From NCBI GenBank assembly GCA_965203325.1, contig OZ241875.1, positions 4,224,001 through 4,288,000 of the forward strand: a DNA stretch of 64,000 nucleotides, read 5' to 3'. A program made the translations under genes and the position numbers. Positions 24,249 through 50,009 of this stretch are shown here, in pieces. This DNA is from a bacterium. Its GTDB lineage: Bacteria; UBA8248. Numbering within the stretch: the first letter of the stretch is position 1; each line of letters starts with the position of its first letter. Under the pieces are notes generated by a model that searched no databases, had not been told where the DNA came from, and saw only the letters and a list, made by a program, of their open reading frames with translations.

Positions 24249-24574
24249 CATTCGGGGGATGGCGTAGCATGTGGCTCATGGTGATGTTTGATTTGCCGAC
24301 CGACACGAAGGCGGCGCGCAAGGCTTACCAGGAGTTTCGAGGCTTTCTGCTCGAAGACGGGTTCACCATGCTTCAATATTCGGTCTACGCCCGGCATTGT
24401 CCGAGTTCCGAGAACGCGGAAGTACACGAAAAACGGATAAATGCCGCTCTACCCCCCGACGGGGAAGTTCGGCTTTTGCTGTTCACCGACAAGCAGTTTT
24501 CGCGGATGAAGATTTTTTACGGAAAGGTACGTAAGGCGACGGAAAAGGCTCCCGAGCAGATCACGCTTTTCTGA
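24245..24574 (+). CDS. cas2: Cas2
   Basis: MWLMVMFDLPT, LLEDGFTMLQYSVYAR; ATGA overlap with cas1. Confidence 0.95.
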   Translation: MTFGGWRSMWLMVMFDLPTDTKAARKAYQEFRGFLLEDGFTMLQYSVYARHCPSSENAEVHEKRINAALPPDGEVRLLLFTDKQFSRMKIFYGKVRKATEKAPEQITLF

Positions 24575-24591
24575 TCTGTACTCGGGAGCCT
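24546..24591 (-). terminator. Hairpin over the cas2 stop; likely terminator for the convergent pre-crRNA
   Basis: AGGCTCCCGAG-CAGATCA...TGATCTG-TA-CTCGGGAGCCT; followed by a short T-run on the minus strand. Confidence 0.6.
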
Positions 24592-24625
24592 AAACCGAAC
24601 CGATTCAACCCCTTGGGGAGAACCA

Positions 24626-27166: not shown

Positions 27167-27245
27167 TCTACCTCAACAAGGCGCACTACCTCACGGACGA
27201 CGAATTTGTCGCGTTCCGTCTGGTGCTCAACGACGCGGAAGCGGA

Positions 27246-29353: not shown

Positions 29354-29388
29354 GTGTTTGCGCGGCCCACTTTGAAGAACGATGTAGC

Positions 29389-30291: not shown

Positions 30292-30399
30292 GCGGTGACT
30301 GGCTTGGAAGGAAATGGTCGAAGGCAAAACCGATACGAAATGGGGACAAAGAAATTTGAAGATGTGATTCCATGTGCCTTCTCGATCTTCTCAGACGAC

Positions 30400-30900
30400 G
30401 TTGCGATAACAAAACAGGTCCCGGGAGTGACCTCCGCAGTTAGAATCAGTCGGTCGTGTATCTCCGGCACCATCTTGAGCTCTTCGTAGTTTTTCGTCAC
30501 CTCGAACATCGCGATCAGGTCGTCTACAGCGAACTGCGGCAGGATGGAGCGGTAGACCAGGTCTGGAAATCGCTTGCGGCACCACAGGAGGTGCTGTTGG
30601 AACCGGACGATGGAGAACTCGTCGCTACCGCCTTGGGCCTGGACAGGTAGTACGAACTGTCTTCCGTTGCTGTCAACTGCGACGTACATCTCGTCGACCT
30701 CGGTCTGGCCGATTGACTTGATGGTGGTGCGTAGGTGGATCTGCAGTGAGCAGGATAGTACATCCAGAAAGGCGTCGAGCAGGCGATTGTACAGGATAGT
30801 GGCGAGAAGGGCCTGCACTCCGCTCAGGGAGAGTAAATACCGTAACAGGGAGCGGGCGGACACAACGGGGGACTGATTCGAGCTATGCCTTCCCGTGTCG
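30400..30900 (-). pseudogene. Degraded restriction-like (PD-(D/E)xK) endonuclease fragment
   Basis: YNRLLDAFL..HLRTT..GQTEVDEMY..VLPVQAQGG resembles an endonuclease family with QAK; here K is replaced by Q and the N-terminus is missing. Confidence 0.5.
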
Positions 30901-30987
30901 GCTTGGTCGCACAGGATGCGAGTCTTAGTGTATCTCAATTCGGACGGCTCCATGTTGCAGGGCATCTTGTGTGCAACCGCCCAGTGT

Positions 30988-31344
30988 TCATACATCTGGC
31001 GGATCCATCTCAGAAAGCAGCGCCTTTATGATCCGATGTAGTTCCGGCAAGTCGTTAACGACGTAATCCCAGACGCGTTCGGGTATCACAACAGCATAGC
31101 CATGGATCAACATGTTGCGGAAGTCGACGACCACACGCATGGTGGGAATTCGTTCGGCAATCTCGGGCGAGACCTTAGACAGGAAATTGAGCGCCTCGCC
31201 GATGATCTCGAACTTGCGTTCGACGGCGGCTTGCGTTCGCGCGTCGGCTAGATAGGCCTCGCGATGCATGCTTTCTGTGAAGTGCACAATGTGCTCAGCG
31301 GCCTGATCCACATCCGCCAGCAGGACGCGTGGGTCACGCTGCAT
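30988..31344 (-). CDS. HepT-like HEPN (DUF86) toxin
   Basis: AVERKFEIIGEA and Rx4H motif FRNMLIHGY. Confidence 0.9.
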   Translation of the reverse strand: MQRDPRVLLADVDQAAEHIVHFTESMHREAYLADARTQAAVERKFEIIGEALNFLSKVSPEIAERIPTMRVVVDFRNMLIHGYAVVIPERVWDYVVNDLPELHRIIKALLSEMDPPDV

Positions 31345-31645
31345 AGACAAGCTCGCGTGACTTGTCGATGGCCGCTCGAAGATACGGGTTGCGGATCGCC
31401 CCTACTTCGACCAGATCGACCGGACAGCCCAGCGTCCGGCGTAACGCTTCGGAAAAGCCGAAGTATTGTTGGAGCGGTTTCCGGTCGTCGTGGAGTCTGA
31501 ATTCCACCAGGAAGTCGGCGTCGCTGGATACCGGGTCGAAGTCCGTGCCCCTTGCCGCCGAGCCGAAGACCTCAAGCCGAGCGACCCGATATTGCCGACA
31601 GAGTGCTACGAGTTCGTCTCGTTTGTCAGCAATGGCTGCGTGCAT
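31334..31645 (-). CDS. MntA-like minimal nucleotidyltransferase antitoxin
   Basis: FGSAARG..SDADFLV..PVDLV..RNPYL; overlaps the HEPN gene. Confidence 0.9.
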   Translation of the reverse strand: MHAAIADKRDELVALCRQYRVARLEVFGSAARGTDFDPVSSDADFLVEFRLHDDRKPLQQYFGFSEALRRTLGCPVDLVEVGAIRNPYLRAAIDKSRELVYAA

Positions 31646-35461: not shown

Positions 35462-37545
35462 AACCAGTCCGGCGTGCGGGACCTGGCCCCATCGCCGTCT
35501 TCGCCCCGGTTTTGCTCATCGTCATCCGCCGCACCGGCGTCATCTCCTTCCGCGGAGTGGACCGCGGGTTGCGGCGCCCCGGGTGTTTCGGAGGATTGAT
35601 CGGGCCCCGCCAGGCCTGAGTCCGGCGGCGGAGCGGGTCGTTCACACTCGTAAACTTCCGCCTCGCCGTTCGCGGTCGTATCGCCGGGCGATTCGGCTTC
35701 CTGCCGATTCGCCGCCTCGCCGGATTCAGTCGCCCTCCCGGACTCGTGTGTTTTCCCGGTCTTCGATGCCCCGGCTTCGGCGCCTCCCGTTTCTTGCGTC
35801 GGCGCATTCTCCCTCGGCATGAAACTCTCGGCCGCACCGGGTCTTTTCACGTAGTCGAGCTCGATGCGGGCCACCGGCCAGGGGCCGGGGAACTTGAGGT
35901 AGCCGTGCAGATTCTCGAGGCGCATGATCTCGGACGGCAGCGCCAGGGGGCGCATCTCGCGGCGCTGCGTGAGCGATACGCCGTCCCTCATCGCGCTGGC
36001 GCCGTAGCTCAGGCCCTCCGCGTACTCGGTGACCTCGCCGCGCCCCAGGCTCTCGGCCGACCAGCGCGCCGTCTCCTGGTCGGGCGCCGCCAGCACCACC
36101 CGGGTGCCGCAGAGGCCCGATACCGTCTCGGCGCCGTTTCGCCCGTACAGATCGCGCAGGGCGGAAATCACCTGGATCCCCAGCACGAAACACCCCCCGA
36201 ACTGGCGCGATTCGGCGAGTCCGGGCTGGAGACTCGGCACCTGGTGGAGGGTGGGGAGTTCGTCGAGCACAATCCAAATCCTGCGCGCGTCGTCCCGGCC
36301 GAGGGACAACAGCGCGTTCACGGCGATCTCCAGCCAGGTCGAGATGAGGCCCCTGAGACTCGCGTGCTGGTCGCCTCGCGAGGTCAGGAACAGGAAGCCG
36401 GTTTCGTCCTCGCGCTCCACCCACTCCCTGATCGAGAAGGGGACGCCTGAGTCGGGCAGGCATTCGAGCGCGCCCAGGTGCGCCGTCAGCATGGCGCGCA
36501 CCGAGAGCGCCGTCTTGGGGTTCTCGGGGTCCACGATGGACTGCGCCACCGTGCCCTCCATGGCCTCGGCCAGAGAGGTGAGTTCGGTCTTGAGCAGGTG
36601 CTCGACGAGTATCCGGTTCTCCGTCACGCCGCGCTTCCAGAGTACGCCCGCGCCGTTCGCGAACAACTGCCGCGCGGCCGTGACCCAGAAGGGGTCCACC
36701 GTGTCCTTCTGCTGCGGGATGAGGGCGGCGGCCATCGTGTCGAAGTCCCTGGGCGTCCTGGCTTCCAGGAAGGGCGACCACCGTGGCGCCCGGGCGTCCA
36801 GGGGATTCATCAGGACGTCGCGGGCGGGGTCGTAGAACGCTCGCGTGTAGCTTCCCATCTTGTCGTAGAGGATGCAGCGCTCGCCGCGTTCCCTGATCTG
36901 CGCGACCAGGTCCGATATCAGGACGGTCTTGCCCGAACCCGTGGTTCCCGAGACGATGGTGTGCTGGGTCTCGGCGCGCTCGGGCCAGGGGACGCCCGCG
37001 ATGCGGGGTCTGGACTTGCGCGCGGCCGGAAAGAATTTTTCCCCCAGGCGGGAGAAAACGGGTTGGACGCGTCTTCCCAGCGCACCTGCCGAGGTCATCT
37101 CGGCGCCCCGCACCCTGCGCGCGCGGGCCATGCGCCGACCCAGGAGCCAGAAGAAGAACGCGAACAGGGCCACGCCGCCCAGACCGAGCCAGAGGCCCAG
37201 CCAGGCTTTCGAATAAATGGTATCGAGCATGCGCCTCCTGATCCGCTCGATCCTGGGGTCCGAAGCGATGAGCTCGATCCGCTCGATCGTTCGCTCACCC
37301 GCCCCCCACTCGTACACCTGGCCCGAATCGGGGGAATACCCGATGGCGAGCTTGGCCTCGGCCAGCGTGCCCAGGCCCACGACGCGCCACTCGTGCGCGC
37401 TCGTCGTCGTGAAGACCGTGATCGCGGGCGTCAGGACGACAGTCAGGACGAGTCCAAAAATTCCCCAGCGCGCGAGCTGGCCCCACATCCTGGCGTCGTG
37501 GAGCAGGGTCTGGCCGCCGCGCAGGGTGGCGTTTCCGATGGTCAT
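35458..37545 (-). CDS. traD: Type IV coupling protein (TraD/TrwB type)
   Basis: Two N-terminal TM helices, GTTGSGKT, IVLDELP, acidic tail; overlaps the relaxase start. Confidence 0.93.
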   Translation of the reverse strand: MTIGNATLRGGQTLLHDARMWGQLARWGIFGLVLTVVLTPAITVFTTTSAHEWRVVGLGTLAEAKLAIGYSPDSGQVYEWGAGERTIERIELIASDPRIERIRRRMLDTIYSKAWLGLWLGLGGVALFAFFFWLLGRRMARARRVRGAEMTSAGALGRRVQPVFSRLGEKFFPAARKSRPRIAGVPWPERAETQHTIVSGTTGSGKTVLISDLVAQIRERGERCILYDKMGSYTRAFYDPARDVLMNPLDARAPRWSPFLEARTPRDFDTMAAALIPQQKDTVDPFWVTAARQLFANGAGVLWKRGVTENRILVEHLLKTELTSLAEAMEGTVAQSIVDPENPKTALSVRAMLTAHLGALECLPDSGVPFSIREWVEREDETGFLFLTSRGDQHASLRGLISTWLEIAVNALLSLGRDDARRIWIVLDELPTLHQVPSLQPGLAESRQFGGCFVLGIQVISALRDLYGRNGAETVSGLCGTRVVLAAPDQETARWSAESLGRGEVTEYAEGLSYGASAMRDGVSLTQRREMRPLALPSEIMRLENLHGYLKFPGPWPVARIELDYVKRPGAAESFMPRENAPTQETGGAEAGASKTGKTHESGRATESGEAANRQEAESPGDTTANGEAEVYECERPAPPPDSGLAGPDQSSETPGAPQPAVHSAEGDDAGAADDDEQNRGEDGDGARSRTPDWL

Positions 37546-37927
37546 TCGATTCTCCCTTTCAGGGTTTGATGGATGGCTGTGATTTTCCTCGTGGAGTCAC
37601 TTGCCGGCCTCCCTTCGGTGGGGTGAAGACGCGTTTGGCCAACCGATCCCCAGCGGCGATGTAGGACGGCTTGCGAGCCGGGTCTTGATGCTTCGTCTCA
37701 ATTGACAGGCCGGGGTGGTCCCGGTGCGGGATTCGATCGCATTCATCTCAGCGTATGTAATACGAAAATACTTCACCGGCAACAGGTTTCAGTAGCTCAT
37801 ATCCTACGGAATTGTTCCAAATACGCTCACACTTGCGCTCCGGTGCGCAGAACCATGACAAAAACGTGAGAAAACGCGATGGAAGAAGACGAGAGAGAAG
37901 CGCTCCGGCGCGAACCGTCGAGCGCCG

Positions 37928-38098
37928 TCATGTTTCCTTCAACAGTTCGTCGATGCGGTCGGCAATGCGTTGCGCGGGTTCGCGCAGTTGCCCGACATTT
38001 CAGTCGGAGGCGTAGCCCTAGGTCACCCCGTCGGGCCGGGTGTGATTCACCAGCCGCTAAGTTAGCGAACGCGGCAGCATGAGTTCGTGTTCCGCAAC
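37928..38098 (-). pseudogene. Tyrosine integrase C-terminal remnant
   Basis: VAEHELMLPRSLT*RLVNHTRPDGVT*GYASD*NVGQLREPAQRIADRIDELL: H...Y catalytic region with three stops. Confidence 0.6.
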
Positions 38099-38335
38099 CT
38101 TATGCAGTGCCCGACATAACGTCCCGCCACATAACAGCCCCAATCCTGAGTGCCTGAGTTCTTGAGCCCCGTACAGACGATGAACTCGTCCCGCTCGGGT
38201 CGTATCTCCCGGACCGCCCTGCGCGAGGACAAGACATTTGTATGGGACGTATAGCACGCGAGGGGCGTTTATAAGGATTGAGCAAGAGGATACAAGCTCT
38301 TTCTCGTATCTGTTTTGAGGCAATTGCTTCATCCA

Positions 38336-41300
38336 TTAGGGCGAGATCACAACGCGAAAAGACGCTTGAGTGGTCTTGATTAGGTAAAGCTCTGTCGTCG
38401 CGAGAAGCCGCAAGCTATCGTCCGTTATGCTATTTACAGAAGCTCCTGGCTGTACAAGTATCATTTCGAAGTTCAGCTTCGCACGACGCGCCTTTTCCTT
38501 AAAGTAGGCAAACCCTTTCATGTCACTCTTTAAAAAGCGGGACGCTCCGTCTTGTTGCCATGCTTCGTGGCGTCGTTTGAGGTCGTTATACAATCTTCGT
38601 AATCCAGTGTGCTTCACAGTGATGCTCTTCTGGGCTTGGCCGCAAACCGTGTAGAAATTTCGAATATCTTGTGAAATTCGCCCTTCGTGTGCGCCTTTGC
38701 AATGGACAAGACAAAGTTGGATTGTACTTTCGTTTACATCTTTTAAGCAGACCAGATCCGCTGCTTCACCACAACCATCGTCATTGAAGATGACGTCGTA
38801 GTCATCCCGCAGATTTTCAAAGGTACGATATTGGATCGTGGCGGTGTCGCGCGTTTTATGCATAGATTCTTGATTAAGCGGTATCCCTCTCCAGTCCCAA
38901 CATTCCAGCTTATCTTTATCGAAGATACCGGAGTCAAGATTTGCTGGGATGTGGTAGCAATTGTAGGAATAAGTGCCGTCGGCGTAACGAACGATGAAGG
39001 GGTCTTTCTGAAGGTACTCCTCCAATGATAGTGCAGGCACATTACTCATTTGAATACTTATCGCAGGGCCAGCAATGTGTTCGTGTTGATAGCCTCCCGT
39101 GAGCGATTCAGAAATGGATAGCCGATATTCTGAAATTGCACTCTCGGAGATAATCCTTATTGAAATCGAACCGTCATGTTGGATTGCACCAATCTCGAGA
39201 TCGACCATGAAGAGGGGAATTTCCATCTTGTCGAAGATGACCCACTGCCGATTGCCAATGCGTAACTGGGCCCGCTCGCCCCATTGTACCGAAATTGGAT
39301 GGGACTCGTACGGGCCTGGCATTCTTTTCGGTCGAAGGAAGTCGCGGGTAATGTTGGTTTCCTGCTGATCCTCTGTGGTAACCTTCGCCCACGTTGCTGA
39401 AGTCCAGTTGATCCATTCAGCGATTGTCCCGGATTTTTGCTGCCAGATCTTTCCGCGACGCTGCGCACCTCCCCATAAGACACGTTCCCCGTCTTCGTAT
39501 CCAAGACATGCGATGTTGTTCAGGGAAGACTCCGCCTTCTCTATGCTGGCAAGGCCTTCAGTTACATTCGGGCCGAAATAAGAAGTGAAACTAATCGCGC
39601 CAATTCGGGAGGAGCCTAAACTCTTTACTAGCGGAAGCTCTACATTATTCAATATGTTGAATATCGGCGTGCCTGAGACAAGCTCCGCTGTTTCATCTGT
39701 GACGGCTTTCGCTATGCGGTCGGAGGGAAGCGCACCATAGTTACTCGTATACAGGCAGAGCACGCCATTCGCTCTGTCCCATCTAAGAACAAGGAGGTCA
39801 TATATAGTATCGAGTAGATTTTCATAGTTTCCCCATTTCACTTCGACGGAACGGCATAATACAGCTACCAGCACTTCCTCAGCTTCGTTGAAGGCAACCC
39901 AGCTTTTCGTCTCAGGTGACAGGACCGAACGAAATTTGAATGGCGACCAATTTTCGCAGGTTGTCCTAAAAAACTGAGCGGAAAGTGCCGGTCGCAGATT
40001 CCAAAGCGATAAATGCTTGTGCAAGTCACCAGCTTCTTTGAGTCCGTATACGACTTCTTGCAGTCTTAACTCTGAAGCTATTCGCTCTTCACTCAATTGC
40101 CGTATGATCTGGTCCCAATCCGCACCATCAGCGTAGAGTTTGGCCAGCTTCGATTCGGCGTCTGGATCAGCTATGTTCGTAACTACCGTAGCTTCACCAA
40201 TTTCCCTCCAATTACCCTTTCGCGTAAACCGGCCGATAAATTGTAGCGTAACCGCAAGTGATTTATGGGTATCGTGGAGTGCTGCGATTTTCAGGTTCGC
40301 TAAATCAAACCCCTCTCCAAGCATGTCAACGCAAACTACAATACGCGACCTGCTGAGATTTCTGTCAAGAATGCGTTGCAGCGCTTCCTTGTTGGCGTTC
40401 GTGCGACCCGGGCCCGAAAACACCACGACAGGGTTTAGATCCGGGGCGAGCTCACGATAGAGTACTGCAATTTTCTCGGCGCGTTCTTTGGTGCGTGTTC
40501 GGGCCATCAAGAGATGGTCCAAACCGAGTTCATCTAAATCGCGACGTAGGGCGAAGATCGCTTCTTTAGCGATTGCTTGGTCTCGCTTACTCTGATCCCC
40601 ATACTCTTCAATAGTACGGAGGTTAATTGGCCGATAATAACCTGCCACCTGTGCATCGCCAAGCTTGTAGTTGAAGATAATCTTTCCATCAATTCTATTG
40701 CCATCACGTCTGAACGGCGTTGCAGTAAACTGGATGATACGTTTTTCTTTGAACAATTCTCGGATGGCGTTCCAAGTGGTCGCCGTCACGTGGTGTGCTT
40801 CATCTACGATCAGGTCGGTGCATTCTTGGATAAGATAGTTGGTAGCATCTGGGGCTGACGCCTGTATAGTATTTGGAAGGGCTATAATGACGTTGGCGTG
40901 TTCTATTATGGAACGGGCTTCTTCAACAGAGCTAATTCCTCCCTTAATGATTGCGACATGTGGCCTTGGTAGTTCGTGTGGTATGACGCCGACATCGTGC
41001 AGAACTCCAAGTGATGCAAACTTTTCTCCGATCTGACTGCGTAACGTATTGCTTGGAACAAGTACGAGGGTGCGTTTGAGCTGGCGATAGACCAGGGTGG
41101 CAAGCATTGTTTCGGTTTTGCCCGTTCCCGTGGGCAACACTATCGTTGCAGCCTCAAAGTCTCCTTCAACAGCGAAATGTGCGGAAATCGCGTGAAGTGC
41201 GCCGATTTGCGGAACACGCAGACCTGGTATTCCGACTTCTTCGTTTGCTGTACGGAAATAGAACTTGTTTGACCAGGACTGGATAACATTCTCAGGGGTA

Positions 41301-41629
41301 TCAGCATAAGTTTCCAGTTCCCCCAACTTGTCCCAGGCTACCGTGAACTGCTTGGGCCAAGTTTCTGGGCCACCAAGTTGTTCACACGTTACAACAGGCA
41401 GGGAAGTAGGTTGGCGACGTGCTCCCTTGCGCCTTAGAATAACTTTGTCATAAGGCTGAGTCAGATCTGTCCTAAGTATATAGTGGCCCGATAATTCGCA
41501 ATCAAAAAGGAGGGATTGGCAACTCGCTCCCATGAATGGGCGCTGGATTACACGGTTGCGACCAATGCGTTTCTTCCGCTCGGGAAGTGGTGGTAGGTTG
41601 ACAATACCTTGCCATTTGGAATTGTTCAT
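38336..41629 (-). CDS. SF2 DExH helicase (Res-like) with C-terminal PD-(D/E)xK-like nuclease
   Basis: LPTGTGKT, VDEAHH, FTATP, DMLGEGFD, QFIGR; C-terminal DDGCGEAADLV..LVHCKG. Confidence 0.85.
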   Translation of the reverse strand: MNNSKWQGIVNLPPLPERKKRIGRNRVIQRPFMGASCQSLLFDCELSGHYILRTDLTQPYDKVILRRKGARRQPTSLPVVTCEQLGGPETWPKQFTVAWDKLGELETYADTPENVIQSWSNKFYFRTANEEVGIPGLRVPQIGALHAISAHFAVEGDFEAATIVLPTGTGKTETMLATLVYRQLKRTLVLVPSNTLRSQIGEKFASLGVLHDVGVIPHELPRPHVAIIKGGISSVEEARSIIEHANVIIALPNTIQASAPDATNYLIQECTDLIVDEAHHVTATTWNAIRELFKEKRIIQFTATPFRRDGNRIDGKIIFNYKLGDAQVAGYYRPINLRTIEEYGDQSKRDQAIAKEAIFALRRDLDELGLDHLLMARTRTKERAEKIAVLYRELAPDLNPVVVFSGPGRTNANKEALQRILDRNLSRSRIVVCVDMLGEGFDLANLKIAALHDTHKSLAVTLQFIGRFTRKGNWREIGEATVVTNIADPDAESKLAKLYADGADWDQIIRQLSEERIASELRLQEVVYGLKEAGDLHKHLSLWNLRPALSAQFFRTTCENWSPFKFRSVLSPETKSWVAFNEAEEVLVAVLCRSVEVKWGNYENLLDTIYDLLVLRWDRANGVLCLYTSNYGALPSDRIAKAVTDETAELVSGTPIFNILNNVELPLVKSLGSSRIGAISFTSYFGPNVTEGLASIEKAESSLNNIACLGYEDGERVLWGGAQRRGKIWQQKSGTIAEWINWTSATWAKVTTEDQQETNITRDFLRPKRMPGPYESHPISVQWGERAQLRIGNRQWVIFDKMEIPLFMVDLEIGAIQHDGSISIRIISESAISEYRLSISESLTGGYQHEHIAGPAISIQMSNVPALSLEEYLQKDPFIVRYADGTYSYNCYHIPANLDSGIFDKDKLECWDWRGIPLNQESMHKTRDTATIQYRTFENLRDDYDVIFNDDGCGEAADLVCLKDVNESTIQLCLVHCKGAHEGRISQDIRNFYTVCGQAQKSITVKHTGLRRLYNDLKRRHEAWQQDGASRFLKSDMKGFAYFKEKARRAKLNFEMILVQPGASVNSITDDSLRLLATTELYLIKTTQASFRVVISP

Positions 41630-41893
41630 GTTTTACCCCTTAACATACGGATATAGACGAGACTCTTTTGCGCGTGCAAAGACAGAATAGTCGTCTGTTT
41701 ACACTTGCGTATCCCGCCTTTCGAATGGATTTCTCCGGCAAATGCCTCGTATGTCCACACATCGTTTTTCAGTGTTGCGAGAACGGAGTTCTTCCCGAAA
41801 ATTGCCCTTTAGGATGCGACGGCGCAATGATTGTATTTGCCGTTCTAAAGGCGGCTTGCGGGGAGGGCGGACATCCTCAATTAGCTTTAGTTC

Positions 41894-42664
41894 CTACGCT
41901 GTCTTCGTGAGATGACTTTGCAGAAACGTTGATCTCCTCTCAAGGGCGCCGGGTCTGTGAAGGTCGTAAAGATCGAGAATGTCTGAACCAAGTTCGTTTT
42001 GGAGCCAGAAAAGGTCCTGGAAATCATTCGCACTCAGGACTTTAGGCTTGAACCTTAGGTCGCACTTTATGGGATCGTAGAACCATCGCCTCTGCATGGG
42101 CATCAAAGCAGGTTCGCCCAAACGGATTATTTCCTGAAGCAATGCTTCGCGTAGATATTGGTCAGCGTTCGAGCGAAATGCAGTTCGCACTAATACTGGC
42201 AAAGGCAGTAAAGCCGGATCGCAAAGGATGAGCCCAAGCTGAATGCAAAACGCCCGAACGTTAAACGTAGTAGGAGAAGATGAAACGATAAGCCGCCACC
42301 AACGCTCGTGAGCAACTTCTAGGGGTCGCTCGCAGTAGAAGTCGAGCGTCTTTTGATGAAAAAGTGCCGCATCCGTCTTAGTAACTCCAGACTTCTGTGA
42401 CTTGCACTCTAAGACTATACAGCGATTACCACTAGTCGCGCCCGAGTCTATCTCATGCCCGATTCCAGAGGCCGGGCGGAAACCGAATAAAGTTGTGGTA
42501 CCGGGACCTTGGCGACACGTCAGGCCGGGGCGTTGGAGCAAGCTACCAATTGCGTGTTCCCATATACGACCGTCGACCAAGATGCCACGGTGATTTGTGC
42601 TCGCTCTGGCGAGTAGCCAAGCGTCTAACGTAAATTCGGCGAGTACGTCTAGATCGTGTGTCAT
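41894..42664 (-). CDS. PD-(D/E)xK-family nuclease-like protein
   Basis: WEH..GHEIDSG..IVLECKSQ; likely start MTHDL 10 bp after the ATPase stop. Confidence 0.65.
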   Translation of the reverse strand: MTHDLDVLAEFTLDAWLLARASTNHRGILVDGRIWEHAIGSLLQRPGLTCRQGPGTTTLFGFRPASGIGHEIDSGATSGNRCIVLECKSQKSGVTKTDAALFHQKTLDFYCERPLEVAHERWWRLIVSSSPTTFNVRAFCIQLGLILCDPALLPLPVLVRTAFRSNADQYLREALLQEIIRLGEPALMPMQRRWFYDPIKCDLRFKPKVLSANDFQDLFWLQNELGSDILDLYDLHRPGALERRSTFLQSHLTKTA

Positions 42665-42674
42665 GATTGGCCCG

Positions 42675-43943
42675 TCATCGCGTTCCGAGGAGCAGATCGT
42701 CGATGTCTTCGGATTCGCTACCATAATCGATTGCAATTTCGAGGTCGGTACTTTCAAATTGTCCATCGAAGAACCGTCGGGCTAGTTCTCCAGTAATCCG
42801 AGGTGCTCCTCGTTCAGCTGCAAAATTGAGTAATTCGTGTGCGCGGTTAAGCAAAATACCTACGCGCCCCTCAGATACCTCGCGTAGGACACCAATCGAG
42901 TCTGGTTCGAAGGGAACAAGTTCATCATCGACGCTGTCTTCGCGGCCTTCTTCCAGGTATACACGAAGCAACTCGCGTACTTGATCGTCATCCTTTAGAC
43001 CGCGTAGGACCACAACGGAAGCGGCATTACTAGGGGACACTTCGAATGGCGGCAGACGATTTTGTTCCCAAAAGCGTTCAAGCTCTAGCGCTGCTCGGCT
43101 ATGGAAAGTGAAGATGAAATGCACTCTGTTTGCGTAGGGTGGCCCTTCAAGCATGTCCCGAATTCGGCCGATTTCTCTTGACCGTTTTGCAGCAGTGATG
43201 CTTCGTGTCGTGGCTAAATCCTCAAGCTGGTCGATCATCAAGTAGAGATGATCAATCCCAGCGGATGCGAGAGCAGCAAGGGCAAAGTCGAGATAGTGAA
43301 GACCGTTTCGCAGACGAGCCGTGGCCGATACTGCTCCTAGCGCCATCTGGACATGTTGAGCGCCACCTGAAGCGAAAGCGTTTACCAGTTCCTGTCGAAG
43401 TGGAGGAGCAGTTCCGCAGATACGATGCCACGTATTGTTAATGTGACTTGCGACTTCAGAAGGCTCCTCCGATTTCAATTGCTCGATGATACGCGCCTTG
43501 GCTTGGTCTAGGACTGCGCTCTTATCCCCTAATGGCTGTGCGAGATCAATTACCGCGTTAAACAGAACGGGATATAGCCCAGAAGCATTGAGATTGTTCA
43601 AATTAGAAAAAGCGGCGGCAACCGGTCTTTGTTTCTCTGGTCGAACACCAGCCTCAGTCAGGGTCTCGACACCCAAGTCTTGGTTGATCTCCTTCGTGAT
43701 TTCTCGCATGAGGGTTGTCTTTCCGAATCCTGTGTCGGCATTAGCTCCCTGGGACCACAGGAAACCAATATTGACTCTTCCCCGAATCGAACTTCGGATA
43801 AACTTGCGACGAAACTCACGAGATTCCTCGTCAAACACGGCCGGGCTGTAGGGTGAATCCTGATCATGGATAGCTGCGGCCGGAAAAGGATTGCCATTCA
43901 ATCCCCATGCTTCTTCCATGTGGTCAAACGCATCGACTGTCAT
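42675..43943 (-). CDS. AAA+ ATPase (Orc1/Cdc6-ExeA-like architecture)
   Basis: WGLNGNPF N-terminus, Walker A GANADTGFGKTT, Walker B LYLMIDQLE, lid FEPDSI..SEGRVG. Confidence 0.8.
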   Translation of the reverse strand: MTVDAFDHMEEAWGLNGNPFPAAAIHDQDSPYSPAVFDEESREFRRKFIRSSIRGRVNIGFLWSQGANADTGFGKTTLMREITKEINQDLGVETLTEAGVRPEKQRPVAAAFSNLNNLNASGLYPVLFNAVIDLAQPLGDKSAVLDQAKARIIEQLKSEEPSEVASHINNTWHRICGTAPPLRQELVNAFASGGAQHVQMALGAVSATARLRNGLHYLDFALAALASAGIDHLYLMIDQLEDLATTRSITAAKRSREIGRIRDMLEGPPYANRVHFIFTFHSRAALELERFWEQNRLPPFEVSPSNAASVVVLRGLKDDDQVRELLRVYLEEGREDSVDDELVPFEPDSIGVLREVSEGRVGILLNRAHELLNFAAERGAPRITGELARRFFDGQFESTDLEIAIDYGSESEDIDDLLLGTR

Positions 43944-43954
43944 TTCGACCTCCT

Positions 43955-45142
43955 TTAGGAGTTTCGAGGTTGCAGGGTCATTTCATATCGGCGGTTACCG
44001 CCTCGTCTGTAGACCGGCTCTGAAGTCGGTTGGCGAGTGGTGCCAAGGTGAAGCAAAACGTGAACACCGAGGTCCGGGATGATTCCAGTAGCTAAACGTT
44101 CGAGCACTAAATCCACAAGAGCTCGCGTGACCTTACAACGAAAAGCTGCATCTGCACGCACACGATAAATGGGAAGATATGGAGCAGCGAGCCTGCTGTC
44201 GGCTACTTGTGCTTGGGCATAATAGGCGGTGACAATCGCTTCCGACACCTGCTGTTCATGTGTTTCAGACGTTCGGCGTTGAATTTGTAGATCGCAGTTC
44301 CCATCAAGATCAGCCGCAAGCCATATAACGTTCTTGCCCTTGAACTGAGGCACATAGCGGGATTGGTCGAGTATTCGTAGTTGTGAGCCCCAACTCTTTA
44401 ATATCTTTAAGTCAGTCGCGCCGATGGCAAGTCCACGCAACCGAATGGCGGCTTCGATGAACGCATCATTCAAAGCTTCTGCCATTTCCTTATTTGTCGG
44501 TCTTTTCTCGCGCTTGTGCCCAAATCGCTTCCGAACGACTGAAACAATGACTTCTCGGATTTGAGCTTTGTGGCTATTTGATAGTTCGTGATCTGTAAGC
44601 CACTCAGTTGCGTAGTGAAACCAATGCTCTGTTTTCTTTCCAGAGCGGCGGGATTCCTCCACGTCTCCTTCCGTGATCTCAGGACAAGCAAGTGGTCCTG
44701 TCTCAAGTATATGAATGAACCTCTGGAAATAGGGGTGTGCGGAATAAACAGCAGTCGTGAGGCGGTCGAAGAACGCCGCCATGTTACTCTCGGCTTGCTC
44801 TGCGGCATCATGGCCAAGAGAAGTGAGACTATATTGACGGTCTCGGTGCGCATCTACGTACTTGCGAGCTGAAGGAAGTTGACGACGTTCTACAAACCCA
44901 AGTCGCATTGCTTCGTCGAGCACCTCACGAGTGGGCGCCCAATACCTATCCCTGTCTCCAACCCGGCTTGCGGTTTTCCGGCCGAGCCCTTGGACGAATA
45001 ACCGATCAACGGTGGCAGCGTATCGGAGGCGAGCCTGTTCGAATGTCGCACCCTCGCGCAGGCCGGACAGTTGAGCCCGCATGTGAGGGACCAATTGTTG
45101 TAATCGAGGAATCGTGTCACGTATATCAGTCGGCTTCATCAT
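43955..45142 (-). CDS. Hypothetical protein with winged-helix-like segments
   Basis: VLDEAMRLGFVE..YSLTSLG and LPIYRVR..ALVDLVLERL patterns. Confidence 0.7.
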   Translation of the reverse strand: MMKPTDIRDTIPRLQQLVPHMRAQLSGLREGATFEQARLRYAATVDRLFVQGLGRKTASRVGDRDRYWAPTREVLDEAMRLGFVERRQLPSARKYVDAHRDRQYSLTSLGHDAAEQAESNMAAFFDRLTTAVYSAHPYFQRFIHILETGPLACPEITEGDVEESRRSGKKTEHWFHYATEWLTDHELSNSHKAQIREVIVSVVRKRFGHKREKRPTNKEMAEALNDAFIEAAIRLRGLAIGATDLKILKSWGSQLRILDQSRYVPQFKGKNVIWLAADLDGNCDLQIQRRTSETHEQQVSEAIVTAYYAQAQVADSRLAAPYLPIYRVRADAAFRCKVTRALVDLVLERLATGIIPDLGVHVLLHLGTTRQPTSEPVYRRGGNRRYEMTLQPRNS

Positions 45143-45148
45143 GATATA

Positions 45149-45177
45149 AACATATACAAATGTCAGGTCTCTGTCAA
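45149..45177 (-). promoter_or_regulatory. Sigma70-like promoter, probably leaderless, for the ATPase cluster
   Basis: TTGACA-17 nt-TATGTT ending 6 nt before the ATG at 45142. Confidence 0.6.
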
Positions 45178-45607
45178 GAGTTCTGAGTTAATAAAATATA
45201 AAAATGGTAAAAGCTGGCTTAGACAATACGAGACTGTCGAGTTCAGCTAAGTTAACGCGAGGCCGAAGTCCAGTGAAAAATTGATGCTACCTATATGGAT
45301 TATAAGCAGTGTATCGTGTGTTTCAGTGAAGTGTTTGTGATTCGGGCACTACAATCGACCGGAAAACCTGAGGGAACTAAAGAATGCGAATAGCTGAAAT
45401 GCGGCGATGTCAGTTCAGGACTCCTAAAAACGATGAATGCCTAAGGGGTTACCATAGCGGTATTAAATCTAGTTGGGAAACGATTAGTCAGCCCGATAAA
45501 ACATCATCTAGGGGGTTGTAACAAACACGGCTCCAAGGACATGGAAATCTTCAATGAACTGCAAGAGAACGACGAAGTCATGAACTACAAACATGCCTAC
45601 AACCTTC

Positions 45608-46768
45608 TCACAAGATATCCTCGGAAATGCTCAACGCGACCCGTTCCGCCGCCTCGCGCACCGTATCGCGCGCGAGATGCGCGTAGCGCGCCGTGGTCTG
45701 TATATGGGAGTGGCCGAGCAGCTTCGCGATGACGGAGAGTCCTTCTCCCAGCGCCAGCGCTCTCGAGGCGTAGGAGTGACGCAGGTCGTGGATCCGCACG
45801 TCATCGAGCTCCGCCCGCGCCCGTACCTTTCGCCAGACGTGATCGAGCCCGCTCAGGCGCGCGCCCGGCTTCCTGCCGGGGAATACCCAGGGATTTCCGG
45901 GAAGACGGGGAAGAGCGGCCAGGAGCTCGGCCGCCGCCGGCGGAAGCGAGACCACGCGCGCACCCGTCTTCGAGTCCACCAGCCGCAGTTCCGATTCCCC
46001 GAGCGCCACGTCCTCCCAGCGCAGCCCGAGGACCTCCGACTTCCGGCACCCGGTCAGCATCAGGAGCCTGATGGCGGCCACGGCGCAGGCGGACGCGCCG
46101 CCCTCCGCCTCCAGCGCGTCGAGCGCCAATCCCAGGCGTTCGAACTCCGCCTCCGTGAGGAACCGCTCCCGCCTGCGAAGGGGGTATTTCACGATGGCGC
46201 GGCACGGGTTCGTTCCTTCGGGCAAAAGCCCCCAGTCGCCTGCCGCCTCGAACATCGAGGAGAGTACCCGCAGCGCCGCGTTCGCCGCCGCAGGCGTCTC
46301 GTGGAGTCCCCGGTGGAGCGCCGCCGCCTGCGCCCCCTCAAGCGATGCGAGCGGTATCTTCCCCAGGGCGGGCAATATGTGCGCACGAAGCGCCGCCCGG
46401 ACCGCGGCGGCCGTGCGCGGCTTGCACCTCACCTCGACGTGTTCCGCCATGTAGCGCCCGGCGAGTTCGGCCACGGTGGGGCCGCCGGCGGATCTCACGG
46501 GCGCGGCCTCCCCGCCCGCCTTGATCTGAGCGATGAGGAGCGCCGCGCGCCTTCTCGCCTCCTCGGAATGGATCACGCCGTGGCGGCCTACCGTCACCCG
46601 TCTCGGTCCCTCGGGCCCCCGCGCCTGCGCGATATACACCTTGCTCCCCGTGGGGTAGACACGGACGCCGAAGCCGGTGAGATCCCTGTCCCAGAACACC
46701 GTGTCCTTGTGGACCTCGAGTTTCCCCACCATCCGGTTCGAGAGCGTTTTCATTGCGGGCTTCCTCAT
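45608..46768 (-). CDS. Tyrosine integrase B (arm-binding + catalytic domain)
   Basis: LTGCRKSE, DSKTG, HDLRHSYAS, LLGHSHIQTTARY. Confidence 0.95.
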   Translation of the reverse strand: MRKPAMKTLSNRMVGKLEVHKDTVFWDRDLTGFGVRVYPTGSKVYIAQARGPEGPRRVTVGRHGVIHSEEARRRAALLIAQIKAGGEAAPVRSAGGPTVAELAGRYMAEHVEVRCKPRTAAAVRAALRAHILPALGKIPLASLEGAQAAALHRGLHETPAAANAALRVLSSMFEAAGDWGLLPEGTNPCRAIVKYPLRRRERFLTEAEFERLGLALDALEAEGGASACAVAAIRLLMLTGCRKSEVLGLRWEDVALGESELRLVDSKTGARVVSLPPAAAELLAALPRLPGNPWVFPGRKPGARLSGLDHVWRKVRARAELDDVRIHDLRHSYASRALALGEGLSVIAKLLGHSHIQTTARYAHLARDTVREAAERVALSISEDIL

Positions 46769-48345: not shown

Positions 48346-49389
48346 TCAGTCTCGATTGATCACTGCTTCAGCTATTTGAAGCTGCTCGATGAGCCACCCG
48401 AAATCAGGAACGTCGCCCAGGATCATGCCTTGGATAGCCCTGTAATCTCTTTCAATCACCGAGCGCAGTTCTGATTGTGGAACCAATCGCAAGGTACCTG
48501 GAACGGCTTTCTCGAACTGCTTCCAGGCTTGTCGGAAGGCGATGAGGTTGTGCTCCCGGACCGAATCCAGTAGATCGATATTCGAAAGAGCTGATCTGCC
48601 CGTTTCGGTTGCCGTAATCATCGCGGCATCATAGTAATGGCGCGAAATCAAATCCCTGTCGGTCGGCAAACGCTTTCCATCTTGATACCCGTAGTGCAGG
48701 CCATGCAGGATCAACAGCTTCTCCCAGTAAGTGCGTTCCGGTGCAAGGGTTCTCACACCGTCCACGTGGAGCGACCAGCTTGGTAGTTCGCCGGAGATGT
48801 AGGGACTCACGGCGCAGGTTAAACTCGGGTCCAGCGCGGACCTCGCTCCCGCTTCAATCTTCACGCGCGGGGACACGTAGGAAACGTCACCGCTCGGGTA
48901 CAGGGTGGAATATTCGATGAAGAGCGTTTGCCGGTTTCCATCATCTTCGTCTGGCAGGACACCGCATCCCTCCACCATCTCGTCAATCAAACCTATCAAC
49001 GCCGCTTTTAGATCTCCCAGAATGTAGTCGCTGCAGACCCCCGCGAGTTCTTTGAAGAGCGCATTTCGTTTCTTTCCGGACAGGTCTCCTCTTATCGTCG
49101 GGTCCCTATCGCCTTCGAAGCCCAAGCCGTCGCGATAGACTACCAGGTCGATGTCCTCGGAAAACCGCTTGATGAGACCGAATGCCTTGGACAAGGATGT
49201 CCCGCCCTTGAAGAGTAGTTTTGGATGCCCGTCGGGCAATCCGTTGTAGAGCGCATCAAGAACGAAACAGACCCAGAAGTCCTTTTCCACGTAACCGGGC
49301 AACGTACCGAGTCGCCTCGCCGCTTCTTCGAACACGTCGCGTTTGTCCTGCTCAGGCAAGGCGAAAAAGGATACGAACGCTCCGTTCAT
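48346..49389 (-). CDS. AbiEii/AbiGii nucleotidyltransferase toxin
   Basis: VEKDFWV, FKGGTSLSK, RFSEDIDL, RHYYD. Confidence 0.92.
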   Translation of the reverse strand: MNGAFVSFFALPEQDKRDVFEEAARRLGTLPGYVEKDFWVCFVLDALYNGLPDGHPKLLFKGGTSLSKAFGLIKRFSEDIDLVVYRDGLGFEGDRDPTIRGDLSGKKRNALFKELAGVCSDYILGDLKAALIGLIDEMVEGCGVLPDEDDGNRQTLFIEYSTLYPSGDVSYVSPRVKIEAGARSALDPSLTCAVSPYISGELPSWSLHVDGVRTLAPERTYWEKLLILHGLHYGYQDGKRLPTDRDLISRHYYDAAMITATETGRSALSNIDLLDSVREHNLIAFRQAWKQFEKAVPGTLRLVPQSELRSVIERDYRAIQGMILGDVPDFGWLIEQLQIAEAVINRD

Positions 49390-50009
49390 GAGGCCGCCGC
49401 CTCATCGGTCGCAATGCTGCGCGCGAGCGGCTGCGCCCAGCCCGGCAGGTCGCGGCTGTTTCGGGCCAGGTCGCGTTTTACCGCGTCGGGAAGACGACGC
49501 TTCAGAATTGAGGCGACGCGAGCGTCCGAGGCGGCTGCGGGACCAAGCCACCGGAGCGCCTGAAAAACTGGAGCCGCCGCCTTCCCGGCCCAGCGCATGA
49601 CGCTTGGACTCGCATGCCGGAACCGAAGCGTTCGCCCGTCGATCTCGACCGATCGCGACGCGCCATCTGTCACGTAGCAAGGTCTGGCGGGAACTGCGTT
49701 TGTGAGGCCGAGTTGGTTGGCGGCCGCCATGCCGTCGGGCATGACCCGGATGCCGTCTCTTCGCGCGATAGCCGCGATCGCGGCATCCAGGTCGGCCGGC
49801 GCGGGCCGATTCAGCACACCGCTCATCCTCGGCTCCTCGTACAAGCCACGACCGACCCGGCGCAGTCGGCCCGCCTTGACGAGACGCGACAAGGCCTGGT
49901 CGACGGCCTCACGGCTCCCGATATCCAGAAAATCCCTCGGCGTGCACACCCACGTCCCGTTGCCGCTTGCGGAAATCCTCTTCATAATCTTGTCGGACAT
50001 GGAAATCAT
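49386..50009 (-). CDS. DUF6088/AbiEi-like antitoxin
   Basis: DFLDIGSREAVDQALSRL..RVGRGLY, AANQLGLTNAVP; overlaps the toxin gene. Confidence 0.88.
   Translation of the reverse strand: MISMSDKIMKRISASGNGTWVCTPRDFLDIGSREAVDQALSRLVKAGRLRRVGRGLYEEPRMSGVLNRPAPADLDAAIAAIARRDGIRVMPDGMAAANQLGLTNAVPARPCYVTDGASRSVEIDGRTLRFRHASPSVMRWAGKAAAPVFQALRWLGPAAASDARVASILKRRLPDAVKRDLARNSRDLPGWAQPLARSIATDEAAAS

What the first reader, a model, noticed from the sequence alone, without database searches (positions are those of the whole stretch)
41894..45177. Unassigned wHTH protein + AAA+ ATPase + PD-(D/E)xK nuclease operon: candidate new defence system
Seen: three tightly spaced genes (gaps 11 and 10 bp), lower GC than the backbone, with their own near-consensus leaderless promoter, inserted just downstream of the integrases. 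The ATPase has an Orc1/Cdc6-ExeA-like layout, a DQLE Walker B and an acidic EDIDDLL tail. Known: sensor + ATPase + nuclease is a recurrent anti-phage/anti-plasmid logic, and integrase-adjacent sites are defence hotspots. I cannot match it to a named system. Inference: a DNA-binding sensor loads an ATPase oligomer that activates the nuclease, possibly together with the downstream helicase.
Basis: partly seen in the sequence, partly recalled or inferred. Interest (0 to 1): 0.75.

Follow-up and report, generated by a model that had tools for sequence, protein, structure and literature searches.

The report
Conserved DNA-binder, ATPase, nuclease operon
Three tightly linked genes for a multi-winged-helix DNA-binding protein, a divergent AAA+ ATPase and a restriction-type nuclease form a self-contained cassette that hops between bacterial phyla and is most likely an uncharacterised anti-phage or anti-plasmid restriction system.

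Summary
Three minus-strand genes sit 11 and 10 bp apart in a 50% GC patch between a conjugation coupling protein and two integrases: A 45142..43955, B 43943..42675, C 42664..41894.

- **A** models as an array of winged helices. Its best fold match is the FokI recognition domain, and the match is weak.
- **B** is a divergent P-loop ATPase with only sub-threshold links to BrxC/BrxD-type Orc/Cdc6 ATPases.
- **C** has a PD-(D/E)xK fold with an invariant E-D…E-K motif.
- **Family libraries:** none of the three matches Pfam, NCBIfam or PADLOC.
- **Conservation:** the A-B-C order recurs in 15 of 16 related genome loci from at least seven phyla. The sixteenth is cut by a contig end.
- **Helicase:** the downstream helicase occurs in 0 of 16 loci.
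- **Promoter:** a palindromic operator overlapping the -35 box, followed by a start codon 5-9 nt after the -10 box, travels with the cassette. The palindrome is seen in 11 of 15 sequences.

A 2024 comparative-genomics paper mentions a closely similar architecture (Orc/Cdc6 ATPase, REase-ASCH fusion, DndG-like triple-wHTH protein), so this is a new variant of a predicted but untested kind.

The defence function is inferred, not shown. Known defence genes lie nearby in 5 of 15 related loci and in the window.

The parts
45143..45186 (-). Promoter and operator. Imperfect palindrome: arms 45186..45178 and 45171..45163, 7 of 9 complementary, around the -35 box TTGACA (45177..45172). The -10 box TATGTT is at 45154..45149, and the start codon follows 6 nt later (leaderless or nearly so).
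   Evidence: Sequence. Scan: (10 of 12 consensus positions, but the site count is not above shuffles). The element aligns upstream of gene A in the related loci. An inverted repeat centred on the -35 is found in 11 of 15 sequences, with compensatory arm changes in L010 and L012. The 16-nt core is found upstream of gene A in the window and 8 of 16 loci, with 3 loose 3-mismatch matches elsewhere and no second copy of the palindrome.
43955..45142 (-). Gene A, 395 aa: array of winged-helix domains, the predicted DNA-recognition subunit and probable autorepressor.
   Evidence: AF2 model: pLDDT 88.6, pTM 0.86. Foldseek PDB best hits are FokI 1fok/2fok (E 0.01-0.026, prob 0.69-0.89, TM 0.21-0.27). 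Then come RPC62, MukE/F, MarR and SspB; none reaches E<=1e-3. The nearest named ESM Atlas cluster is FokI D1-D3 at 0.81, which is weak. No Pfam family in 0 of 21 members. 335 relatives.
42675..43943 (-). Gene B, 422 aa: divergent AAA+/P-loop ATPase with a roughly 150-aa insert between Walker A and Walker B, and a conserved acidic-hydrophobic C-terminal tail (DIDDLLLG).
   Evidence: Walker A and B are conserved. Pfam gives only sub-threshold AAA_16 (12 of 16 members) and NACHT (11 of 16). ESM Atlas features resemble BrxC_BrxD clusters at 0.97. 3 of 24 distant relatives hit PF10923 just below cut-off. No PDB relative by sequence. 279 representative clusters at E<=1e-3. Strong Shine-Dalgarno AGGAGG before the ATG.
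41894..42664 (-). Gene C, 256 aa: PD-(D/E)xK nuclease core (about residues 1-165) plus a helical C-terminal domain; the predicted effector.
   Evidence: AF2 model: pLDDT 92.3, pTM 0.90. All interpretable Foldseek hits are PD-(D/E)xK nucleases: AF1548 (E 5e-3, prob 0.99), BspD6I small subunit, EndoMS/NucS, Can2, Hjc and the FokI cleavage domain. E71, D73, E86 and K88 are invariant in 25 of 25 sequences. No Pfam family in 0 of 25.
38336..41629 (-). Neighbouring 1097-aa SF2 helicase with a long C-terminal region. It shares the low-GC patch but is not a conserved part of the trio.
   Evidence: ResIII 5.6e-22, DEAD and Helicase_C. Weak PADLOC hits to PbeA (4e-8) and mREase_IV (3e-7). Found in 0 of 16 related loci. 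A 264-nt gap separates it from gene C.

Best explanation
The trio is an autonomous, horizontally mobile, ATP-dependent restriction-like defence cassette.

**Subunit roles.** Protein A is a FokI/DndG/SspB-style array of winged helices that recognises DNA. Protein B is a divergent Orc/Cdc6-BrxC/D-like AAA+ ATPase that lacks a DNA-binding domain of its own. It is inferred to assemble on A-bound DNA and use ATP binding or hydrolysis as a switch or scanner. Protein C is an active PD-(D/E)xK nuclease that cuts the target once licensed by A and B.

**Target.** No methyltransferase or other modification gene travels with the trio, and A is not hypervariable. The target is therefore more likely a conserved feature of foreign DNA (a modification, a structure or a replication intermediate) than a variable sequence.

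**Expression.** The palindromic operator over the -35 box implies that a cassette-encoded protein, most likely A, represses its own promoter. The leaderless first gene lets the cassette be expressed in many phyla.

**Shown:** gene order, conservation, folds, catalytic motifs, the operator and promoter layout, and horizontal spread.

**Inferred:** complex formation, the order of events, the target, autoregulation by A, and the defence phenotype itself.
For: **Unit.** A-B-C are colinear in 15 of 16 loci; the 16th is cut by a contig end. Identities of A, B and C to the window copies co-vary, r = 0.92-0.98 over 13 loci. The next downstream gene is convergent in 12 of 15 loci.

**Parts.**
- C has a nuclease fold with invariant E71/D73/E86/K88.
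- B has conserved Walker A and B motifs.
- A is a multi-wHTH model with FokI as best fold hit and SspB also listed.
- PMC10853773 (passages) states that a triple-wHTH module is shared by DndG, SspB and FokI. [quoted passage not shown]

**Mobility.**
- Trio GC is below both flanks in 9 of 14 loci and in the window.
- A well-supported clade of B joins Gammaproteobacteria, Spirochaetota and Acidobacteriota on short branches.
- Transposases or an integrase lie nearby in L002, L003, L004, L010 and L012.
- 3 of 16 copies are decayed: L010, L012 and L015.

**Context.**
- Strong PADLOC defence neighbours lie within about 6 kb in 5 of 15 assessable loci. These are L001 type II MTase, L009 HEC-01A, L010 type I RM plus Septu PtuA/B, L015 PD-T4-10_B plus type IIG fragments, and L016 PDC-S02 plus type I REase.
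- The window element also carries Cas9 and Cas1 with a CRISPR array of at least 39 repeats, AbiEi/AbiEii, a type II REase-like gene and HepT.

**Operator.** It is conserved across phyla with compensatory arm changes.
Against: **No experiment exists for any member.**

**Defence context is incomplete.** In 10 of 15 related loci no strong known defence gene was found within about 6 kb. Several copies sit among housekeeping genes: L003, L004, L006 and L011. A third of loci with defence neighbours is suggestive, not decisive.

**Fold evidence is weak.** For A no hit reaches E<=1e-3 and TM is 0.21-0.27. For C the best hit is E 5e-3.

**B's clade is not established.** The Orc/Cdc6 assignment rests on language-model features and sub-threshold hits only.

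**Family absent from tested collections.** No hits in 50,697 phage records or 5,426 E. coli genomes, and one weak hit (25% identity) in 72,556 plasmids. No systematic screen is likely to have tested it.

**High conservation of A is atypical.** A is 57-82% identical among the top 120 relatives. That is unusual for a specificity subunit under arms-race selection.
Confidence: 0.5

Rival explanations
1. A selfish addiction (toxin-antitoxin-like or restriction-like) module. C is a toxic nuclease held in check by A and/or B, and the cassette persists by killing cells that lose it. Any phage protection would be a side effect.
For: - The three-gene unit is autonomous and autoregulated behind a palindromic operator, a layout common in TA and RM control.
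- It occurs sporadically and is horizontally spread.
- 3 of 16 copies are decayed.
- It often sits alone among housekeeping genes.
Against: - An ATPase and a 395-aa multi-domain DNA binder are elaborate for an antitoxin.
- All three proteins are highly conserved rather than fast-evolving.
- There is no similarity to known TA families in Pfam or PADLOC.
- This reading overlaps the defence reading and is hard to separate from it by sequence alone.
Confidence: 0.15
2. An accessory module of mobile elements, acting in replication initiation, partition, entry exclusion or target choice. In this reading an Orc/Cdc6-like or TnsC/MuB-like ATPase, a DNA-binding protein and a TnsA-like nuclease serve the element rather than the host.
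For: - In the window the trio lies between the T4SS coupling protein and relaxase and two integrases.
- Transposases lie nearby in L002, L003, L004 and L012.
- One distant B relative carries an ISXO2-like transposase domain.
- Orc/Cdc6-clade ATPases include transposition ATPases (PMC10853773, passage).
Against: - No transposase, relaxase or replication gene is conserved next to the trio in the 16 loci, and the flanking mobile genes differ from locus to locus.
- No second copy of the upstream palindrome marks the far end of the cassette, so there are no terminal repeats.
- In L006 and L011 no mobile gene was seen within about 6 kb.
Confidence: 0.1
3. A DNA repair or recombination complex: structure-specific nuclease, loader ATPase and DNA-binding subunit. 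It would be used by the host itself and only incidentally found on mobile DNA.
For: - Fold neighbours of C include EndoMS/NucS and Hjc resolvases.
- An error-prone DnaE2-type polymerase gene lies within 6 kb in L001 and L012.
Against: - The distribution is patchy and cross-phylum, with atypical GC.
- The family is absent from E. coli, and only one weak plasmid hit was found.
- Copies are frequently decayed.
- The cassette carries a self-contained promoter and operator.
- The same fold neighbours of C include many restriction enzymes.
Confidence: 0.05

Closest known systems
[quoted passage not shown]
   Same: - The same three functions sit in one operon: a multi-wHTH DNA binder of the DndG/SspB/FokI type, an Orc/Cdc6-like AAA+ ATPase, and a restriction-fold nuclease.
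- The gene neighbourhoods are mobile.
- The authors predict an anti-selfish-element role.
- That kind is also uncharacterised experimentally.
   Different: - The nuclease here has no ASCH domain. There is no Pfam hit in 0 of 25 members, and the C-terminal part of the model is mainly helical.
- Whether the protein families are the same could not be tested, because the paper's gene lists are in a supplement that could not be read.
- B's place in the Orc/Cdc6 clade is not established here.
The SspB-SspC pair of the SspABCD phosphorothioation system, and the BrxA/BrxC and BrxD components of BREX
   Same: - They pair a tripartite HTH/wHTH DNA-binding protein with an Orc/Cdc6-type ATPase. The ATPase is thought to oligomerise on DNA and scan it (PMC10853773; PMC12839542; PMC12914056).
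- BrxD, like B, is a stand-alone ATPase of about 400-440 aa with no DNA-binding domain.
- SspB appears among A's fold hits, at ranks 34 and 41 with E 0.6-0.7.
   Different: - No PAPS reductase, cysteine desulfurase, PglZ, PglX or methyltransferase is conserved beside the trio.
- A does not match a DUF4007 model in Pfam (0 of 21 members). B does not match DUF6079 or reach the BrxC_BrxD cut-off (0 of 16).
- PADLOC gives no hit for A, B or C.
- The effector here is a nuclease, not a modification enzyme.
FokI and BspD6I type IIS restriction enzymes
   Same: A's best fold match is the three-wHTH recognition domain of FokI. C matches the FokI cleavage domain and the BspD6I small subunit. Together A and C look like a FokI split into two genes.
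   Different: - An ATPase gene sits between the two halves.
- There is no companion methyltransferase.
- All matches are weak (E >= 0.005), and no FokI Pfam domain is detected.
McrBC type IV restriction (functional analogy; the description of McrBC is recalled, not from a call)
   Same: The logic is the same: DNA recognition, then an oligomeric NTPase, then a PD-(D/E)xK nuclease subunit, with no methyltransferase.
   Different: - Recognition and NTPase are separate proteins here.
- B is not a McrB-type AAA_5 GTPase and C is not a McrC family member; no such Pfam or PADLOC hits were found.

Membership tests
Orc/Cdc6 + REase-ASCH + DndG-like triple-wHTH operons (PMC10853773) | [quoted passage not shown] | tested here: inconclusive
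   - Walker A and B are conserved.
- ESM Atlas features resemble BrxC_BrxD clusters at 0.97.
- 3 of 24 distant relatives hit PF10923 below cut-off, the best at 22.0 against 22.2 bits.
- 0 of 16 close members hit it.
- No structure of B was predicted.
Orc/Cdc6 + REase-ASCH + DndG-like triple-wHTH operons (PMC10853773) | A DndG/SspB/FokI-like protein of three winged helices | tested here: inconclusive
   The confident model (pLDDT 88.6) contains at least three helix-helix-wing units by my reading of its secondary structure. FokI is the best fold hit and SspB is listed, but no hit reaches E<=1e-3.
Orc/Cdc6 + REase-ASCH + DndG-like triple-wHTH operons (PMC10853773) | A restriction-fold nuclease fused to an ASCH domain | tested here: not met
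   The nuclease fold and motif are present. No ASCH domain was found: 0 of 25 members in Pfam at E<=1, and the C-terminal 90 residues are mainly helical.
Orc/Cdc6 + REase-ASCH + DndG-like triple-wHTH operons (PMC10853773) | The same protein families as the examples listed by the authors | not testable with these tools
   Supplementary Data S1 is a zip file too large to be read here.
SspABCD / BREX type 4 modification module | SspB-type DUF4007 protein and SspC/BrxC-type ATPase by family model | tested here: not met
   Pfam finds no family for A in 0 of 21 members. For B it finds only sub-threshold AAA_16 and NACHT. PADLOC and NCBIfam give no hit. That those two libraries hold Ssp models is recalled, not checked.
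SspABCD / BREX type 4 modification module | Adjacent PAPS-reductase-type (SspD/BrxP) and sulfur-donor genes | tested here: not met
   None was found among 157 flanking ORFs of 16 loci scanned with Pfam, nor beside the trio in the window.
BREX (BrxD) | BrxC_BrxD (PF10923) match at the curated cut-off, with PglZ and PglX nearby | tested here: not met
   0 of 16 members match. There is no PADLOC Brx hit. No PglZ or PglX lies in the flanks.
PD-(D/E)xK nuclease superfamily (protein C) | Restriction-endonuclease-like alpha/beta core carrying D...(D/E)xK | tested here: met
   The model has pLDDT 92.3. Fold hits to AF1548, EndoMS, Can2 and Hjc have probabilities of 0.77-1.00. D73 and E86-x-K88 are invariant in 25 of 25 sequences. 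No Pfam member family is matched.
Any system in PADLOC-DB 2.0.0 (2023) | At least one component matching a system model | tested here: not met
   0 families for A, B and C at E<=0.01, and 0 for 23 distant relatives of B. Systems described after 2023, and DefenseFinder models, were not available.

The most novel reading that the evidence does not exclude
The trio is a minimal 'scan-and-cut' immune module. It would use the wHTH-array plus Orc/Cdc6-type ATPase core that BREX and Ssp systems use for modification, here wired directly to a nuclease and working without any self-marking enzyme. It would tell foreign from self DNA by a conserved physical feature, not by a sequence tag. It would also carry its own phylum-independent expression kit: a leaderless first gene and a cassette-encoded repressor binding a co-travelling palindrome. 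The conserved DIDDLLLG tail of the ATPase would be the tether that recruits or releases the nuclease.
Probability: 0.3. Interest if true: 0.7.

Novelty: new variant of a known kind. Interest (0 to 1): 0.55.

Why it matters
If it protects cells, this would be an experimentally untouched defence family. It has hundreds of members in soil and marine bacteria of many phyla, and the Pfam, NCBIfam and PADLOC libraries searched here do not detect it.

It would also give a small, three-protein model for a larger question. BREX and Ssp systems contain the same kind of core, an Orc/Cdc6/BrxC-type ATPase working with a multi-winged-helix DNA reader, and its role there is still unclear after years of study. 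This trio could show how that pair couples DNA recognition to an effector.

The co-travelling operator and leaderless promoter show how a cassette can stay expressible after transfer between phyla.

Tried and rejected
**Family and database searches that found nothing**
- Family libraries gave nothing for A, B or C.
- PDB sequence searches with profiles of A, B and C gave nothing below E 0.05.
- The Foldseek search of A against viral models gave only single-wHTH hits with E >= 0.1.
- Plasmid, phage and E. coli collections gave one weak plasmid hit (25% identity), none and none.
- Rfam found no RNA family in 37400-46000 at E<=0.1.

**Ideas tested and dropped**
- Transposon ends: repeat searches found no terminal repeats around the trio or the low-GC patch, so I dropped the idea that the upstream palindrome is a transposon end.
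- The helicase as a fourth component: rejected, 0 of 16 loci.

No statement on binding comes from it.
- As a rough proxy I matched longest-contig lengths between hit lists. Of 119 listed B clusters, 37 share a length with an A hit, 43 with a C hit and 22 with both. This is a lower bound and only suggestive.

**Literature**
- Searches for a named system with this make-up returned no paper naming this trio (full text of PMC open-access papers and bioRxiv).
- The nearest statement in print is the sentence in PMC10853773.
- The supplement that lists its gene neighbourhoods could not be read. It may show that this very family was already catalogued.


Full report
**What is in the sequence**

Three genes lie head to tail on the minus strand. 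A runs 45142..43955 (395 aa), B 43943..42675 (422 aa) and C 42664..41894 (256 aa).

The mechanical ORF for C starts at 42766 and overlaps B. Its 117 relatives are 255-256 aa long and align from the ATG at 42664.

B is preceded by AGGAGG. A has no Shine-Dalgarno sequence at all.

GC is 0.49-0.52 across 38-45 kb. It is 0.69-0.70 in the relaxase and coupling-protein genes at 33-37 kb and 0.68-0.71 in the two integrase genes at 46-48 kb.

**Wider setting**

The trio sits on an integrative, mobilisable element rich in defence genes:
- a NikA-like gene;
- Cas9 and Cas1 at 20396-24248, with a CRISPR array of at least 39 repeats of 36 nt from 24626;
- a type II REase-like gene at 30288-30995, next to HepT;
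- a TrwC relaxase and a TrwB-type coupling protein;
- a 1097-aa helicase;
- the trio itself, then two integrases;
- AbiEi/AbiEii at 48346-50009.

**The three proteins**

None of A, B or C matches any model of PADLOC-DB 2.0.0, Pfam or NCBIfam at the usual thresholds. B reaches only AAA_16 at E 0.011, with 16.7 bits against a cut-off of 32.6. Scanning whole alignments changed nothing.

*Protein C.*
- It gave a confident model: pLDDT 92.3, pTM 0.90.
- All its interpretable fold neighbours are PD-(D/E)xK nucleases: AF1548, the BspD6I small subunit, EndoMS/NucS, Can2, Hjc, the FokI cleavage domain and MspJI.
- The best E-value is only 5e-3, though probabilities reach 0.99-1.00.
- E71, D73, E86 and K88 are invariant in 25 of 25 aligned sequences down to 26% identity.
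- I take it to be an active nuclease.

*Protein A.*
- It also modelled well: pLDDT 88.6, pTM 0.86.
- From its secondary structure I read at least three helix-helix-wing units.
- Its best fold hits are FokI with its three-wHTH recognition domain (E 0.01-0.026, prob 0.69-0.89, TM 0.21-0.27).
- Other multi-wHTH proteins follow: RPC62, MukE/F, the Brr2 WH region, MarR and SspB. None reaches E<=1e-3.
- The ESM Atlas independently gave FokI D1-D3 as the nearest named cluster, at a weak 0.81.

*Protein B.*
- Walker A is ADTGFGKT and Walker B is LMIDQLED. About 150 residues lie between them.
- There is a conserved N-terminal HMEEAW…NPFP motif.
- There is a C-terminal helical segment that, from memory, resembles an AAA+ lid.
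- After a variable acidic linker comes a tail, DIDDLLLG. It is present in 11 of 13 intact copies.
- No PDB relative is detectable by sequence.
- ESM Atlas features resemble BrxC_BrxD clusters at 0.97.
- A profile search of 1.84 billion representatives found 279 clusters at E<=1e-3.
- Of 24 distant members scanned, 3 touch PF10923 (BrxC_BrxD) just under its cut-off. None of the 23 of these that were scanned against PADLOC hits it.
- The 'Orc1/Cdc6-like' label is therefore a reasonable lead, not a result.

**Is the trio a unit?**

Yes.
- A pattern scan of 185,579 species genomes gave 16 loci.
- By their record titles they come from Pseudomonadota, Latescibacterota, Spirochaetota, Verrucomicrobiota, Acidobacteriota, Actinomycetota and Chloroflexota.
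- A, B and C are adjacent and in the same order in 15 of them. The 16th (L011) ends inside B.
- Identities of the three proteins to the window copies rise and fall together, r = 0.92-0.98 over 13 loci.
- The next downstream gene is convergent in 12 of 15 loci (my own greedy ORF calls of 90 aa or more).
- The window's helicase is found in none of the 16 loci.
- Three copies are decayed. L012 has a Mu-type transposase inserted in A. L010 and L015 carry frameshifts.

**Evidence of horizontal spread**
- GC of the trio is below both 5-kb flanks in 9 of 14 loci.
- In a tree of B, a well-supported clade joins gammaproteobacterial, spirochaete and acidobacterial copies on short branches.
- The family is absent from 50,697 phage records and 5,426 E. 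coli genomes. It has one 25%-identity hit in 72,556 plasmids. This may explain why no screen has met it.

**A conserved promoter and operator**

By itself it is no better than chance: 4 sites were found against 3.4 +/- 1.9 in shuffles.

Aligning the 60-70 nt upstream of gene A from 14 loci and the window shows one element with four parts:
- an imperfect palindrome (consensus ACTCAG..CTCTTGCAACAGACCTGA);
- a centre, TTGCAA or TTGACA, that is the -35 box;
- a TG-extended -10 box about 17 nt downstream;
- a start codon 5-9 nt after the -10 box in the 7 sequences (the window and 6 loci) where I measured it.

An inverted repeat centred on the -35 is the best one found in 11 of 15 sequences.
- It is perfect (9 of 9) in L003, L004 and L012.
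- It matches 8 of 9 in L010 and L016.
- It matches 7 of 9 in the window, L001, L006 and L011.
- It matches 6 of 9 in L002 and L005.

In L010 and L012 both arms have changed together (GGT/ACC to TAT/ATA), which keeps the symmetry.

The 16-nt core is found upstream of gene A in the window and 8 of 16 loci. Three loose 3-mismatch matches lie elsewhere, and there is no second copy of the palindrome. It is therefore not a pair of transposon ends.

A cis element that stays with the cassette across phyla must be read by something that also travels or is universal. RNA polymerase explains the hexamers but not the flanking symmetry. I therefore infer a cassette-encoded repressor, most likely A.

A leaderless first gene would also help expression in distant hosts. 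Both points are inference.

**Is it a defence system?**

The domain logic fits, and so does the mobile, patchy, decaying distribution.

Strong PADLOC neighbours lie within about 6 kb in 5 of 15 assessable related loci:
- L001: type II methyltransferase;
- L009: HEC-01A;
- L010: type I RM plus Septu PtuA/PtuB;
- L015: PD-T4-10_B plus type IIG fragments;
- L016: PDC-S02 plus type I REase.

The window itself is also defence-rich. In the other 10 loci I found none, and some copies (L003, L004, L006, L011) sit among housekeeping genes. This is suggestive enrichment without a proper background. I put the defence reading at about 0.5.

**Comparison with what is known**

PMC10853773 (passages read) makes three relevant statements:
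- SspC is a Cdc6/Orc-clade ATPase thought to scan DNA together with SspB;

The last is the closest description in print. The trio here has the same three functions, but its nuclease lacks ASCH. I could not check whether the families coincide, because the supplement is unreadable.

PMC12839542 (passages) describes BrxD as a stand-alone ORC-Cdc6 ATPase and tripartite HTH/wHTH proteins as universal in BREX.

PMC12914056 (passages) equates SspB with DUF4007 and SspC with BrxC.

By family models the trio belongs to none of these. No modification enzyme, PglZ or PAPS reductase accompanies it.

It therefore works most like a split FokI or a three-part McrBC, built on the BREX/Ssp type of reader-ATPase core. 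It is not a member of any of those families.

**Verdict**

I rate it a new variant of a predicted, experimentally untouched kind. It is of moderate to good interest, and the conserved operator and leaderless promoter are an unexpected extra.

**What stayed unchecked**
- metagenome and viral contig context (collections closed);
- cluster names;
- any test of binding;
- the fold of B;
- the 2024 paper's supplement.

Noticed in passing
window 45143-45186 (minus strand); L003 8761-8784 and the equivalent positions in the other loci: A palindromic operator overlaps the -35 box, with a TG-extended -10 box and a start codon 5-9 nt after it. The layout is conserved upstream of gene A across phyla. In L010 and L012 both arms changed together, keeping the symmetry.
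   Followed up: yes
window 20396-27200: A type II-C-like CRISPR-Cas locus on the same element: Cas9 (988 aa, RuvC_III, HNH_4 and Cas9_a domains), Cas1, and an array of at least 39 repeats of 36 nt with spacers of about 30 nt from 24626. ORFs called inside 24561-27141 are therefore spurious. Spacer targets were not examined.
   Followed up: partly
window 38336-41629 (minus strand): A 1097-aa SF2 helicase (ResIII, DEAD, Helicase_C) with about 600 further residues that match no family. It has weak PADLOC hits to PbeA and type IV mREase. It shares the low-GC patch with the trio but never co-occurs with it elsewhere (0 of 16 loci). It is probably a separate helicase-nuclease type defence gene.
   Followed up: partly
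window 28478-31350 and 48346-50009: More defence-type cargo: two DUF5677 genes, a type II REase-like gene (PADLOC 1.5e-46) next to a HepT-like RNase, and an AbiEi/AbiEii pair beside the integrases.
   Followed up: no
window 11605-11696: ARAGORN calls a 92-nt tRNA-Ala(CGC) inside a long, high-GC ORF (10173-12593, Cadherin-like and Calx-beta domains). One of the two calls is probably wrong.
   Followed up: no
L012 6159-9985; L010 10001-11268; L015 8831-12060: Decayed copies of the trio. In L012 gene A is split by a 2.6-kb insertion carrying a Mu-type transposase. B is broken in L010, and all three genes are broken in L015.
   Followed up: partly
L001 17502-20849 and L012 12230-17211: A DnaE2-type error-prone polymerase gene lies within 6 kb of the trio in 2 of 16 loci; in L012 a DUF6504 gene accompanies it. 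This may be coincidence.
   Followed up: no
Protein B residues 8-21 and 412-422 (window 43880-43922 and 42678-42710): Two short, strongly conserved motifs lie outside the ATPase core: an N-terminal HMEEAW…NPFP and a C-terminal DIDDLLLG tail after a variable acidic linker. They look like docking motifs, but their partners are unknown.
   Followed up: partly
Proteins P0467 (602 aa) and P0445 (501 aa): Two longer distant relatives of B. One has 277 extra N-terminal residues with no family. The other carries an ISXO2-like transposase domain, which could be a fusion or a mis-joined gene call.
   Followed up: no
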